Shown: positions 1,343 through 11,527 of the stretch, one piece after another
How positions within the stretch are numbered: position 1 is the first letter of the stretch
Layout of the letters: every line of letters begins with the position of its first letter
Source of the DNA: a virus
Lineage: Duplodnaviria; Caudoviricetes
DNA: 26,046 nucleotides
IMG/VR virus record: IMGVR_UViG_3300011335_000131
Coordinates: 1-26,046 of that record
Direction: 5' to 3' (one strand)
Translations under genes and position numbers: made by a program
The notes under the pieces: model-generated
Told to the model about the DNA's origin: nothing
Database searches by the model: none
Seen by the model: only the letters and a program-made list of their open reading frames with translations

Positions 1343-1370
1343 CCCCATCCCTAAAAAGGTGGGGTTTTTT
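1343..1370 (+). terminator. Intrinsic terminator 1
   Basis: CCCCATC/GGTGGGG stem followed by T6, 16 nt after the stop codon. Confidence 0.8.
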
Positions 1371-1373
1371 ATA

Positions 1374-1381
1374 TATCTTTG
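1374..1381 (+). promoter_or_regulatory. Bacteroidota-type -7 promoter element driving a candidate small RNA
   Basis: TATCTTTG fits TAnnTTTG; there is no ORF before the next terminator. Confidence 0.6.
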
Positions 1382-1384
1382 GCT

Positions 1385-1440
1385 TTCATATTGGTTTAAC
1401 TTAGGTTTAGCCCCCATTTAGTCTTATTTGGGGGTTTTTT
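1385..1440 (+). ncRNA. Candidate ~55-nt antisense small RNA
   Basis: Bounded by a promoter element and a terminator. Its 5' part is complementary to the start regions at 1548-1560 and 3303-3314. Confidence 0.55.
1411..1440 (+). terminator. Intrinsic terminator 2
   Basis: CCCCCA/TGGGGG stem followed by T6. Confidence 0.75.
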
Positions 1441-2288: not shown

Positions 2289-2456
2289 ATGAACGCAATT
2301 GAAACCCTTATTTACACATTAGAAACACAATTAAAGACAATGCCAAGTGGCTATGTAAAAGAAACTGTAACCGCCTGTAAGGAATTAGCTGAAGGCATAA
2401 AAGCAATTTATGAAAACCCTAATAACGACATTAGTAACCAACCAAATCAAGACTAA
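2289..2456 (+). CDS. 55-aa hypothetical protein
   Basis: Manual translation MNAIETLIYTLETQLKTMPSGYVKETVTACKELAEGIKAIYEN... Confidence 0.65.
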   Translation: MNAIETLIYTLETQLKTMPSGYVKETVTACKELAEGIKAIYENPNNDISNQPNQD

Positions 2457-2628
2457 CCTACAAACCGAAGCCGACTCCAAAGGCATAACCTTAAGTAAGT
2501 TGGTTTACAAAATCCTAAAACAATATGAGCAAACTAATCTACCAAGAGAAACAACTAAAGTTGCACAAAAGAGCAACAATACTACTCCAGCTACTAAAGG
2601 AAGCACAAGGAAGGCAAAATCTATTTGA
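2410..2628 (+). CDS. Probable ribbon-helix-helix DNA-binding protein
   Basis: Strand-helix-G-turn-helix pattern LITTLV..IKTNLQTEADSKGITLSKLVYKIL; the tail overlaps the next gene. Confidence 0.55.
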   Translation: MKTLITTLVTNQIKTNLQTEADSKGITLSKLVYKILKQYEQTNLPRETTKVAQKSNNTTPATKGSTRKAKSI

Positions 2629-5522: not shown

Positions 5523-5717
5523 ATGAGCCAAAACCAACAAATCAAATCTTATTTAGAAAAAGGTAGAAAATTAACCCCTATTGATGCCTTAAACAAGTTC
5601 GGATGCTTTAGATTAGCAGCACGAATTGCTGACCTAAGAAACGATGGTATGAACATAAAAACCACTATTGTTAAGCTAAAGAATAAGAAACAAATAGCAC
5701 AATATTCGGTTAATTGA
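5523..5717 (+). CDS. Winged helix-turn-helix protein
   Basis: LTPIDALNKFGCFRLAARIADLRNDGMNI is a common phage wHTH motif. Confidence 0.8.
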   Translation: MSQNQQIKSYLEKGRKLTPIDALNKFGCFRLAARIADLRNDGMNIKTTIVKLKNKKQIAQYSVN

Positions 5718-5718
5718 T

Positions 5719-5726
5719 TATATTTG
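5719..5726 (+). promoter_or_regulatory. -7 promoter element for the replication genes
   Basis: TATATTTG immediately after the wHTH stop codon. Confidence 0.65.
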
Positions 5727-5729
5727 CAA

Positions 5730-5807
5730 TAGAATGTACGAGATTCTAATACAAAACTTTTTGCCCAAGGAGGCGTTGGTACTCGTACTACCAGCAAATC
5801 TGCGGGC
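5730..5807 (+). ncRNA. Structured 5' leader with complementary hairpin loops (candidate cis-regulatory RNA)
   Basis: Hairpins TAGAAT[GTACGAG]ATTCTA and GTTGGTA[CTCGTAC]TACCAGC; the two loops are reverse complements. Confidence 0.6.
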
Positions 5808-5817
5808 TATTTTATTT

Positions 5818-6552
5818 ATGAAAAGTAATAGTTACTATTTTAGCCACGATTACAACTCGGCTAATGATACCAAGATTCTATTTTTACGGCATCAACTTGG
5901 TATGGAAGGTTACGGCATTTATTGGTTTTTAATTGAGCAATTGGCTAATGCTGGAGGTAAATTGCCATTAGATTTAATACCTGTACTTGCTATGCAGATG
6001 CAAACTACCGATGTAAAGGTTAATGGGGTAGTACATAATTTCAATTTATTTTCTATTGAATCTGGCGAGTTTTACTCGGAAAGGTTGCAAAATCATTTAG
6101 CTTTAAGGCAAAATTTAAGTGAAAAGGGTAAATTAGGTGCTGCTAATAGATGGAAAAATGGGGGGGCTATTGGGGATGCCATTGGGGAGGGTAATGCAAA
6201 GGAAAGAAAAGGAAAGGAAAGTAAAGTAAAAGAAACTAAAGTAAAGGTTAGTAGGCAAACGCTATTTAGTGAAACGCAATTTTTAGATATAGAAATATTT
6301 AAAGCAGCTTTTATTGGAACTCAATATGAAGAAGCTAATTTTGCATACTACCACGAAGTAATTAAAAATTGGTCAGATTCTAAAGGCGAAAAGAAACTTG
6401 ATTGGATAGCCACCGCAAAAAATTGGATGGCACGAGATTTAAAAGAAGGAAAATTTGTTCACATAAACTATAAACCAAATGCAACAGGAATTAACAACAA
6501 TAGTAAACTCACTTACGCTGAACGAGAAGCAATCAAAAGAAATAATTTATAA
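5818..6552 (+). CDS. Replication initiator-like protein (DUF4373/Lin1244-type N-terminus)
   Basis: YFSHDYNSANDTKI..L...GMEGYGIYW.LIE motif, GKLGAANRW linker and C-terminal DWIATAKNW. The start is moved from 5734 to the ATG at 5818. Confidence 0.75.
   Translation: MKSNSYYFSHDYNSANDTKILFLRHQLGMEGYGIYWFLIEQLANAGGKLPLDLIPVLAMQMQTTDVKVNGVVHNFNLFSIESGEFYSERLQNHLALRQNLSEKGKLGAANRWKNGGAIGDAIGEGNAKERKGKESKVKETKVKVSRQTLFSETQFLDIEIFKAAFIGTQYEEANFAYYHEVIKNWSDSKGEKKLDWIATAKNWMARDLKEGKFVHINYKPNATGINNNSKLTYAEREAIKRNNL
6158..6247 (+). repeat. Iteron-like repeats plus purine-rich pentamer tract (candidate origin)
   Basis: GCTATTGGGGAT/GCCATTGGGGAG tandem, then AAAGG/AAAGT repeats, inside the initiator gene. 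Confidence 0.45.
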
Positions 6553-7204
6553 ACTATCTGACCCTTACGAATTAAAAGTTTATGAGGCTCAACAAACATT
6601 AATAATTGGTAGATGCTCAAGAATAGAAGTTAAAGAGCATTTAAAGACCTGTTTGCAACTTAGCGGTTTACAATCACCAATAAGTCAAGATTTTGAGTTT
6701 ATAGTTGATTTTGTAATTAATAATTATGGTAATTATAAGTTAAAAGAATTGGGTATAGCTTTCGAATTATATGCTTCAAATAGACTTGAGGTAAGTCAAC
6801 ATATAATTTTTAACCCACGATTCTTTGGTGAAGTAATGGCAGCTTATAAGCCAATTTCAATACAAGTAAGACAAAAGACTTATGTTGAGCCACAACCAGT
6901 AGAAATACCTAAATTACAAGATGATGAAGTTATTAAGGCTTTGTACGAAAATTGGGAGAAATCTGCTAAAAGAGGTTGGGAGTTGCTAAATACTATGGCT
7001 TTTGACATACTATGGAAGCGAAAGGAACTAAATAAGGAGAATCTAAGTCAAGACAAAGCAGACCAGATAAAGAACAAGATAATTGCTCATTACAAGGTAA
7101 CTGCTAAAACACCAAAAGACTTGGAGAAATTAAATAATGAATTATTTATCAAAAATGAGTGCAAAAGATATACTTTGTACCTATTTTTACAAAACAAATT
7201 ATAA
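6479..7204 (+). CDS. Hypothetical protein, positional candidate for helicase loader
   Basis: 241-aa ORF overlapping the initiator end. No P-loop seen; function is inferred from position only. Confidence 0.6.
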   Translation: MQQELTTIVNSLTLNEKQSKEIIYKLSDPYELKVYEAQQTLIIGRCSRIEVKEHLKTCLQLSGLQSPISQDFEFIVDFVINNYGNYKLKELGIAFELYASNRLEVSQHIIFNPRFFGEVMAAYKPISIQVRQKTYVEPQPVEIPKLQDDEVIKALYENWEKSAKRGWELLNTMAFDILWKRKELNKENLSQDKADQIKNKIIAHYKVTAKTPKDLEKLNNELFIKNECKRYTLYLFLQNKL

Positions 7205-10389: not shown

Positions 10390-11527
10390 GGCTACACCTG
10401 TATTTTATGCTAATAAAAAGGCATACGAGGAAGGTTATCCTATAATATGCAATGAAGGAGGTTCAAGGTCAAGTAAAAGCTATTCCGTTGTTCAGTTACT
10501 AATCCACATTGCAATAAGCAATCCTAATACAAGGATATCAATGGTATCGCATTCCCTACCGCATATCAAGCGTGGAGTTTATAGGGATTTCAAAGGCATA
10601 ATGGAGCAATGGGGTATTTGGGATGAAAAAGACTTTAGGTATACCGATTTTATTTATACGTTTAAAAATGGCTCTTACATTGAGTTGTTTGGTCTTGAAG
10701 ACCCTGACAAAGCAAAAGGACCAGCAAGGGACATCCTATTTGTAAACGAGGCAAACCTTATTAGCAAGGCTTTATTTGACCAGTTATTGATAAGAACAAC
10801 TGGACAATCATTCTTAGATTGGAATCCAGCCGACTTTATTAGTTGGGTTTATGAGGTAGCCGATAACCCACAAAACAAGCGCATCCATTCTACCTACCTA
10901 AACAACATTTCAAATCTAAGCGATAGCCAAATAAGAAACATTGAGCAATACAAAGATTTGCCTGATGACTTTATGTGGAAGGTGTACGGATTAGGGGAAC
11001 GAGGCTCTGCAAAGGAAATTATATACACTCAATGGAAACAATACGATGAAGCACCTGATGGTGATGTATTCTATGGATTGGACTTTGGTTATGTCCATCC
11101 AGCTGCACTTGTTAAGGTTACGCACCACGAAGGACAAAACTACTTTGAGGAAATAGTTTATCAAAGCGGACTAACTCTTAGCGACCTATCAAGATTAATT
11201 AAAGAAAAGCTACCTGAACGTGCCACGATATATGCAGATGCAGCCGAACCTAAATCAATTGAAGAACTTTATAGACAAGGTTTTAACATTAAACCAGCGC
11301 AAAAGGATGTATGGGCTGGGATTGTAAAGATGAAATCTTATCCAATTAACTTGCACTACAATAGTAAAAACCTAAGAAGGGAGTTTATGTCTTACAAATG
11401 GAAAAAGGATAAAAACGATAACGTAATAGAAGAACCTGTAAAGGCAAACGATGACTTGATGGATGCTTGTAGGTATGCCGTATTTACGCATTTAACCAAG
11501 CCTAAGTTTGAAGTGTCGGTATTTTAG
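10361..11527 (+). CDS. terL: Terminase large subunit (PBSX XtmB/SPP1-like)
   Basis: Walker A GGSRSSKS, Walker B LFVNEA, LDWNP, and nuclease motifs GLDFG and DDLMDACRY. Confidence 0.95.
   Translation: MQIVNQLKIKATPVFYANKKAYEEGYPIICNEGGSRSSKSYSVVQLLIHIAISNPNTRISMVSHSLPHIKRGVYRDFKGIMEQWGIWDEKDFRYTDFIYTFKNGSYIELFGLEDPDKAKGPARDILFVNEANLISKALFDQLLIRTTGQSFLDWNPADFISWVYEVADNPQNKRIHSTYLNNISNLSDSQIRNIEQYKDLPDDFMWKVYGLGERGSAKEIIYTQWKQYDEAPDGDVFYGLDFGYVHPAALVKVTHHEGQNYFEEIVYQSGLTLSDLSRLIKEKLPERATIYADAAEPKSIEELYRQGFNIKPAQKDVWAGIVKMKSYPINLHYNSKNLRREFMSYKWKKDKNDNVIEEPVKANDDLMDACRYAVFTHLTKPKFEVSVF

What the first reader, a model, noticed from the sequence alone, without database searches (positions are those of the whole stretch)
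5730..5817. Kissing-loop RNA leader in front of the replication initiator
Seen: right after promoter element 5719-5726, hairpin 1 (TAGAAT 5730-5735 / ATTCTA 5743-5748) displays loop GTACGAG (5736-5742). Hairpin 2 (GTTGGTA 5775-5781 / TACCAGC 5789-5795, one G-U) displays loop CTCGTAC (5782-5788). The loops are exact 7-nt complements. Hairpin 2 sits on an outer GCCC/GGGC stem (5763-5766 / 5804-5807) followed by TATTTTATTT and the ATG at 5818. Known: IncI/IncB plasmid rep translation is controlled by loop-mediated pseudoknots. Inference: a cis-regulatory switch (attenuator or translational control, possibly initiator autoregulation) for phage replication.
Basis: partly seen in the sequence, partly recalled or inferred. 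Interest (0 to 1): 0.72.

Follow-up and report, generated by a model that had tools for sequence, protein, structure and literature searches.

The report
Kissing-loop leader RNA gating phage replication
A predicted ~85-base RNA at the start of this phage's DNA-replication genes has two hairpins whose tips are exact complements, a match kept through paired mutations in about a hundred related phage sequences, and it likely works as a portable gate that lets only part of transcription run on into the next gene.

Summary
77 of 77 initiator-anchored relatives carry the element. 97 of 103 distinct leaders have perfectly complementary 7-nt loops, in 17 alleles. It runs from a Bacteroidota TAnnTTTG promoter to a GC stem plus U-tract 9-13 nt before an ATG. 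It precedes several different initiator types and HNH genes, so it is a portable cassette and initiator autoregulation is unlikely. Not found: a conserved 5734 extension, antisense promoter, third target site, strand-exchange antiterminator, or integrase/repressor. Best reading (0.45, inferred): the kiss forms during transcription and opposes zipping of the lower terminator stem, setting read-through. Sign and input are untested; no usable RNA reads exist. Loops do not change faster than stems, which weakens a trans-specificity role. No Rfam match. One hairpin is probably the anonymous candidate DNAVirus_187 (Fremin 2023 supplement; alignment not visible). This scan noted what appears to be the same family on other DNA (e1-3286599, e1-6081233).

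The parts
5523..5717 (+). Upstream winged-HTH gene (HTH_39); its stop lies 1 nt before the promoter box. Context only: replaced by other genes in many relatives
5719..5726 (+). Bacteroidota sigma-A -7 box TAnnTTTG; predicted transcription start about 5731
   Evidence: 6/6 match in 92 of 96 leaders, 5/6 in 4 (that set was filtered for the box, but it is also plain in the protein-anchored set); box at -12..-5 per PMC9723704 passage; start site inferred
5730..5748 (+). Hairpin 1 (P1); the strictly kept core is 4 bp (5732-5735/5743-5746), fading where the RNA is predicted to begin
   Evidence: pairs 1-4 Watson-Crick in 95-97 of 97, pair 5 in 77, pair 6 in 36
5736..5742 (+). Loop 1, GTACGAG (family pattern R-U-N-N-N-A-N)
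5749..5762 (+). Single-stranded A/U linker, 13-17 nt in the family, core AACUUAUU
5763..5807 (+). Hairpin 2: lower GC stem P2 (5763-5766/5804-5807), short P3 (5769-5771/5799-5801), upper stem P4 (5775-5781/5789-5795), separated by internal loops
   Evidence: MFE; covariation; median -18.2 kcal/mol in 96 leaders
5782..5788 (+). Loop 2, CTCGTAC, exact complement of loop 1
5808..5817 (+). U-tract directly after the stem (terminator-like) that doubles as the translation-initiation region
   Evidence: 6-7 U of the first 8 nt in 96 of 96 leaders (6 of 8 was my parsing threshold, 1 of 97 failed it); stem base 9-13 nt from ATG
5818..6552 (+). Replication-initiator-like gene (Lin1244_N / DUF4373, PF14297; phrog_2562 'replication initiation protein')
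6479..7204 (+). Overlapping next gene of the operon, function unknown (helicase loader inferred by position only; other members have DnaB here)

Best explanation
The element is a conserved, portable RNA leader whose two hairpin loops are complementary, and it likely acts as a cis attenuator in which the loop-loop kiss, predicted to form during transcription, would hinder closing of the lower terminator stem and so set how much transcription reads through into the replication genes. Shown: the structure, the loop-loop covariation, the + strand RNA polarity, the promoter-leader-U-tract-ATG layout and the portability. Inferred steps: (1) host RNA polymerase starts at about 5731 and hairpin 1 folds first, displaying loop 1. 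(2) About 45 nt later the upper stem P4 folds and loop 2 pairs with loop 1 while the tether is slack (about 26 nt). (3) Closing P3 and P2 then leaves only a 13-17 nt linker to span about 70-90 A, close to full stretch, so the kissed form resists the terminator and keeps the start region open. (4) Transcripts that fail to kiss in time zip the stem and stop at the U-tract as an ~85-nt RNA, or mask the start region. The input is most likely kinetic (elongation rate, pausing), with capture of loop 1 by same-allele leader RNA as a possible second input.
For: Loop-loop pairing is kept by compensatory change. Spacing from loop 1 to loop 2 is 44-49 nt in 97 of 97 leaders, as expected of a cis geometry. 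G-U pairs are common in P4 (24, 10 and 25 of 97 at three positions) and A-C is absent at pairs 1-6, so the + strand RNA is what folds. A U-tract follows the stem base, 9-13 nt from the ATG. Read-through must occur, since the initiator, and ninG in 4 of 4 HNH insertions at that site, have no -7 box of their own; portal keeps its own box after the HNH gene in 10 of 10 insertions, which fits a limiting element. No conserved strand-exchange antiterminator exists (best fixed 4-bp register in 28% of 64; local hairpin in 16 of 45), which leaves the kiss as the only conserved alternative contact. Rough geometry: 71-90 A needed against 88-100 A of reach. The loop duplex (median -8.7) and lower stem (median -10.3 kcal/mol) are of similar size. 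Precedent for steric antitermination by an upstream structure: tug-of-war riboswitches, bioRxiv 10.64898/2026.06.17.733018 (abstract and passages).
Against: No expression, probing or termination data. The terminator is atypical (4-5 bp base, then internal loops): the terminator scan found none here, and RNIE called the probable published counterpart 'no'. The geometry is borderline, not prohibitive; the internal loops could bend the hairpin so that the kiss stabilises the zipped form, giving the opposite sign. Linker length does not rise with arm length (Spearman -0.27). Natural tug-of-war spacers are under 5 nt, versus 13-17 nt here. No signal or ligand was identified. In 37 of 96 leaders a nested fold that opens both stems scores best at the intermediate length, so the pairing might not always be a true kiss.
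Confidence: 0.45

Rival explanations
1. Opposite sign, with a trans role: the kiss locks a compact terminated ~85-nt RNA (OFF), or the released or processed hairpin 2 binds loop 1 of new transcripts, as P4 CI RNA does, giving dose-dependent shut-off and allele-specific exclusion.
For: 17 loop alleles; 4 letter-identical hairpin-2 scaffolds carry 2-3 different alleles. In 8 contigs with two leaders the HNH copy always has GTGAGAT and the initiator copy one of 5 other alleles. Conserved A/U linker could be a cleavage site (RNase E-like motif recalled, not tested). Loop changes define ColE1 compatibility (bioRxiv 10.1101/2021.11.25.470029, passages).
Against: Central kiss pairs change 7-12 times by parsimony, the same range as variable stem pairs (7-13), so there is no sign of faster loop evolution. 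No third co-varying site in 269 kb of flanks (10 and 6 own matches versus 11.7 and 6.8 for other alleles). No integrase, resolvase or HTH_3 protein in 5 of 5 near-complete genomes, so no prophage immunity to maintain. The HNH allele may be shared ancestry and differs by one base from GTCAGAT.
Confidence: 0.22
2. A put-like nascent RNA that binds RNA polymerase and suppresses pausing or termination, the kiss holding the binding shape.
For: Two stem-loops just downstream of a promoter followed by a U-rich tract, like putL (PMC9378689 passages); conserved linker, closing pairs and internal-loop bases could be polymerase contacts.
Against: These phages have host-type -7 boxes before many downstream genes and portal keeps its own box after the cassette in 10 of 10 cases, so processive antitermination seems unneeded. 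The U-tract abuts a GC stem base, the layout of a terminator. No Rfam match.
Confidence: 0.12
3. Purely translational switch, as in IncI/IncB rep mRNAs, or initiator autoregulation: the lower stem masks the start region and the kiss or a protein opens it.
For: Stem base only 9-13 nt from the ATG, within a ribosome footprint; U rather than A at -3 in 87 of 96 (the A preference in Bacteroidota is recalled).
Against: The U-tract is kept directly at the stem base. No leader peptide or antisense RNA is conserved. The downstream protein is freely swapped among different types, which argues against autoregulation by the initiator.
Confidence: 0.12
4. A counter-transcript from a mirror-image promoter in the linker starts with the complement of hairpin 1 and competes for loop 1.
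For: The linker read on the - strand resembles TAAGTTT(G), placed 8-10 nt from the loop like the sense box; perfect in 7 of 96, 5/6 in 46.
Against: The free 'nn' positions are more conserved (83 and 77 of 96) than the last T and G (54 and 23 of 96), the reverse of a promoter; no conserved box in the first 150 nt of the gene (8 of 97 anywhere).
Confidence: 0.05
5. A DNA-level element: palindromic operator over the start site, or hairpins of a replication origin.
For: P1 is almost strictly Watson-Crick and overlaps the predicted start.
Against: G-U but not A-C in P4; stems vary without a matching protein; the same cassette sits before HNH genes between terminase and portal; an operator would not explain loop-loop covariation.
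Confidence: 0.04

Closest known systems
Satellite phage P4 immunity leader: CI RNA with seqA and seqC (PMC4825925, one passage)
   Same: Untranslated leader before replication genes, premature termination, a downstream RNA segment complementary to a sequence at the 5' end of the same transcript.
   Different: No downstream seqC-like target, only 7 bp of complement, both partners in hairpin loops, about 85 nt in all, and no lysogeny genes found.
pT181/pIP501 antisense-driven rep attenuators (PMC8383071 and PMC3753616, passages)
   Same: Terminator-like hairpin before a rep gene; loop-loop recognition as the likely decision step.
   Different: No conserved counter-transcript promoter and no conserved strand-exchange antiterminator; both loops lie on one strand.
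IncI-alpha ColIb-P9 repZ / IncB pseudoknot with Inc RNA (PMC8383071, passage)
   Same: A loop-mediated tertiary pairing in the leader of a replication initiator.
   Different: The partner is a second hairpin loop about 30 nt before the ATG, not the RBS region; no Shine-Dalgarno system, no conserved leader peptide, no antisense gene; found in phages, and also before HNH genes.
Tug-of-war riboswitches (bioRxiv 10.64898/2026.06.17.733018, abstract and passages)
   Same: An upstream structure opposing a terminator without overlapping its stem strands.
   Different: No aptamer or ligand; spacer 13-17 nt rather than under 5; the upstream hairpin grips the terminator's own loop. 'Kissing' and 'phage' do not occur in that text.
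HK022 putL RNA (PMC9378689, passages)
   Same: Two stem-loops of similar total size right after a phage promoter.
   Different: put has no loop-loop covariation described in the passages read; here a long linker separates the stems and a U-tract abuts the second.
DNAVirus_187 (Fremin et al. 2023, PMC10690425, supplementary table rows)
   Same: 49-nt candidate, 122 sequences, mostly freshwater Caudovirales, Bacteroidetes host in 2, within 25 nt upstream of DUF1376 (54) and DUF4373 (36) genes: fits hairpin 2 (45-47 nt) of this element.
   Different: An anonymous table entry, too short to hold both hairpins; 'kissing' and 'DUF4373' are absent from the main text. Its alignment could not be seen, so identity is likely, not shown.

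Membership tests
IncI/IncB rep pseudoknot leaders | Pseudoknot between a hairpin loop and sequence next to the ribosome-binding site | tested here: not met
   Partner is loop 2; 6-mers of either loop near the start codon are at chance level (10 versus 9.4)
IncI/IncB rep pseudoknot leaders | Cis-encoded antisense RNA with its own promoter | tested here: not met
   TAnnTTTG on the - strand in 8 of 97; mirror box not conserved like a promoter; sequence test only
IncI/IncB rep pseudoknot leaders | Translated leader peptide coupled to rep (recalled feature) | tested here: not met
   Start codon and frame at the 5734 position vary; in frame and open in 5 of 97
pT181/pIP501 attenuators | Intrinsic terminator before rep | tested here: inconclusive
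   GC stem base plus U-tract in 96 of 97 but interrupted stem; simple scan negative; no 3'-end data
pT181/pIP501 attenuators | Mutually exclusive antiterminator helix | tested here: not met
   No conserved register; some pairing excess in 26 of 96 leaders, in varying places
P4 CI / c4 antisense immunity RNAs | Upstream complementary target in the same transcript | tested here: met
   Loop 1 complements loop 2
P4 CI / c4 antisense immunity RNAs | Second, downstream target | tested here: not met
   No co-varying third site in flanks or in 5 whole records
P4 CI / c4 antisense immunity RNAs | Match to the Rfam models of the group | tested here: not met
   No Rfam hit on the leader in the window (E up to 5) or in 10 relatives (E up to 10)
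P4 CI / c4 antisense immunity RNAs | Processed stable RNA acting in trans in a lysogen | not testable with these tools
   Only assembled contigs were available; no integrase, resolvase or HTH_3 in 5 of 5 genomes
HK022 put RNAs | Binding to the RNA polymerase beta' zinc-binding domain and processive antitermination | not testable with these tools
   Needs transcription assays
Tug-of-war riboswitches | Ligand-binding aptamer less than 5 nt before the terminator | tested here: not met
   Linker 13-17 nt; no known aptamer
DNAVirus_187 (Fremin 2023) | Match to its alignment or covariance model | not testable with these tools
   The files with alignments were too large or gave no text; length, habitat and downstream genes fit

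The most novel reading that the evidence does not exclude
A self-contained RNA copy-number sensor for lytic phages: one 85-nt leader is both target and regulator. Kissing in cis lets transcription through; terminated or processed leader RNA of the same loop allele captures loop 1 in trans and shuts replication genes down as genome dose rises or when a same-allele phage co-infects. It needs no antisense gene and no repressor, the loop triplet acts as an address, and homing-endonuclease cassettes carry their own channel.
Probability: 0.2. Interest if true: 0.85.

Novelty: new variant of a known kind. Interest (0 to 1): 0.62.

Why it matters
It is a strongly supported RNA tertiary motif absent from Rfam, shared by many uncultured Bacteroidota phages (about 630 stored stretches matched a loose pattern, roughly half of those inspected being real). 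These phages lack recognisable integrases and CI-type repressors and appear to use host promoters throughout, so how they time or limit replication genes is open; this leader is the obvious candidate. Natural alleles give ready-made compensatory mutants and cross-talk pairs, so the sign of the kiss and any trans action are directly testable in one reporter. If it works as proposed it adds a ligand-free attenuator architecture and a set of portable regulators for Bacteroidota.

Tried and rejected
N-terminal extension from ATG 5734: rejected. Third site GTACGAG at 1676-1682: inside an ORF, one extra match where 0.69 are expected; no co-varying third site in relatives. Antisense promoter: not conserved as one. 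Faster evolution of the loops: not seen (short alignment, recombination ignored). Conserved strand-exchange antiterminator: not seen. Host-genome copies: a pattern scan of genome contigs gave 22 matches, none a real member; the model found 0 of 151 genomes of the family of one Chitinophagaceae bin (no positive control in that set, so 'not found in those searched'). Cultured phages: no meaningful blastn match; the DUF4373 initiator of a Porphyromonas phage has a plain terminator-like hairpin upstream and no model hit. RNA evidence: 9 runs listed, all assembled contigs with small shares; 7 were laid and none shows starts, ends or strand. PDB sequence search of the initiator: nothing significant. 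Kink-turn and anticodon-loop mimicry were considered by eye only: the K-turn pattern is not kept across families, and the U2/A6 loop pattern is noted without a test. Literature searches for a description of this element returned none; subscription papers are not covered, the supplement of Weinberg 2017 (PMC5737381) could not be read, and two files each of PMC10690425 and PMC8040213 were not searched, so a prior description there cannot be excluded.

Full report
Setting. The window is a 26-kb virus record, about 90% complete, with its genes on one strand: RecT, HNH, a winged-HTH gene, the initiator, ninG, terminase, portal, capsid and tail. Two homologues of the initiator are named from Sediminibacterium and Chitinophagaceae bins, and TAnnTTTG boxes precede many genes, so the host is likely a Bacteroidota bacterium. 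No tyrosine integrase, resolvase or HTH_3 protein was found in 5 of 5 near-complete genomes, with controls ringing in 12-14 of 14; these look like lytic phages.

The observation. The nested fold has both hairpins with open loops. Among 375 nearby pairs of 7-nt-loop hairpins in the window only this one has complementary loops.

Relatives. A search with the initiator protein alone kept 80 of 279 loci; 77 had upstream DNA. 76 of these have two hairpins with at least 7 complementary loop bases within 105 nt of the ATG; the 77th, L049, has the leader 425 nt upstream, before an inserted HNH gene. A pattern with no loop information gave 121 loci, 61 of which scored a 7-nt complement. A covariance model built from 16 hand-picked leaders gave 238 hits over four searches, some being the same contig fetched twice; 221 begin with a -7 box and 215 of those have at least 6 complementary loop bases. 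The six exceptions are three reverse-strand echoes of the palindromic 5' part, two long-loop variants that by eye still pair over 8 bases, and L273 with one mismatch. The 215 collapse to 103 distinct leaders; 97 have exact 7/7 loops, in 17 alleles, the rest have 6- to 9-nt loops. The patterns fixed part of loop 2, so the constant U2 and A6 are partly built in for those loci, but they also hold in the protein-anchored set.

Structure. In the 16-sequence alignment the loop-loop helix is fully paired, with double changes at 5 of 7 pairs; no shuffle or slide approaches it. The stems covary too. P4 holds many G-U and no A-C pairs at positions 1-6, so the + strand RNA folds. P1 is strict for 4 pairs and fades at pairs 5-6, where the transcript should start if the box lies at -12..-5 (PMC9723704, passages). 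The loops are closed by U-A and mostly A-U, which blocks extension beyond 7 bp in most families. Loop spacing is 44-49 nt, the linker 13-17 nt, and the RNA from predicted start to U-tract is 84-88 nt in 91 of 96. The stem base is 9-13 nt from the ATG.

Portability. The first gene after the leader belongs to Lin1244_N/DUF4373, DUF1376-like, HTH_36, DnaD-like, O-like and other initiator types, or is a short HNH gene before the initiator, a methylase-like gene or a NUMOD4-HNH gene. The window's own allele precedes three of these types. A GTGAGAT allele precedes NUMOD4-HNH-type genes in 14 of 14 matches, inserted between terminase and portal (10) or before ninG (4). Eight contigs hold two leaders, always with different loops. 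Portal keeps its own -7 box behind the cassette in 10 of 10 cases, ninG in 0 of 4. So the leader must allow read-through, probably limits it, and is unlikely to be read by the initiator protein.

What is missing. The frame from 5734 is in frame and open in 5 of 97 leaders. A - strand promoter box occurs in 8 of 97; the linker resembles a mirror-image box but is conserved in the wrong positions. No third copy of the loop sequence co-varies, near the start codon or in 269 kb of flanks. No alternative helix is kept in a fixed register, although 26 of 96 leaders show some excess pairing and 37 of 96 prefer an open nested loop-loop helix at an intermediate length. The central kiss pairs change no more often than variable stem pairs, against my first expectation of diversifying selection, even though four identical scaffolds carry several alleles.

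Mechanism. The kiss is the only conserved contact that could compete with the terminator-like hairpin. The order of synthesis lets it form before the lower stem closes. A rough calculation gives 71-90 A to be spanned by a linker reaching at most 88-100 A once the stem is closed, against 53 A and about 160 A before; the two helices have similar predicted energies. I therefore favour a kinetic attenuator in which kissing promotes read-through (0.45). This step is inference: bending at the internal loops could reverse the sign, the terminator is atypical, and the available RNA runs were contigs only. Rivals are an OFF-locking or trans-acting form as in P4 (0.22), a put-like polymerase modifier (0.12), translational control (0.12), a counter-transcript (0.05) and a DNA element (0.04).

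Comparison with what is known. It works most like the RNA-controlled gates on replication genes of P4 and pT181, and perhaps like tug-of-war riboswitches, but fails a defining feature of each (papers read as passages; ColE1 passages). Rfam has no match. Four literature searches found no description. The supplement of Fremin et al. 2023 lists DNAVirus_187, 49 nt, mostly freshwater, upstream of DUF1376 and DUF4373 genes; this is probably hairpin 2 alone, but its alignment could not be read, nor could the supplement of Weinberg 2017. Earlier notes of this scan describe what appears to be the same family in other genomes and similar designs in gut phages; they are unchecked and were used as leads only.

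Verdict. A real, well-supported kissing-loop leader RNA, a new variant of RNA-gated replication control, with mechanism inferred and directly testable. Interest 0.62.

Noticed in passing
window 1345-1440: A terminator-like hairpin, then a TAnnTTTG box at 1374, then about 60 nt ending in a second terminator-like hairpin: a possible small RNA. The same layout with compensatory stem changes is in G001 near 11439.
   Followed up: partly
window 6160-6250: G-rich short repeats followed by a purine-rich A tract inside the initiator gene, the layout of a lambdoid origin (recalled, not tested).
   Followed up: no
window 8515, 10015, 11539, 14198, 16116, 23171: Host-type -7 boxes directly before late genes (ninG, small terminase, portal, protease and others), suggesting no dedicated late transcription system.
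   Followed up: partly
L356-L369 (for example L088:1197-1764): Mobile cassettes of promoter, kissing leader and NUMOD4-HNH gene at two insertion sites, all with loop GTGAGAT; in L357 the promoter box is degenerate.
   Followed up: yes
L273:1257-1357: The only leader with mismatched loops, possibly a recent recombinant between two alleles or a chimeric assembly.
   Followed up: no
L132:257-364, L089:1199-1298, L138:1197-1295, L108:1197-1306: Variants with a long loop 1, with 6-nt or 8-nt loops, or before a ParB-like gene.
   Followed up: partly
window 5736-5742 and 5782-5788: Both loops fit N-U-N-N-N-A-N, like a tRNA anticodon loop, and U2-A6 can pair within a free loop; meaning unknown.
   Followed up: no
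window 2410-2628: A 72-aa ORF that by eye resembles a ribbon-helix-helix DNA-binding protein; only a weak unknown-function PHROG hit.
   Followed up: no
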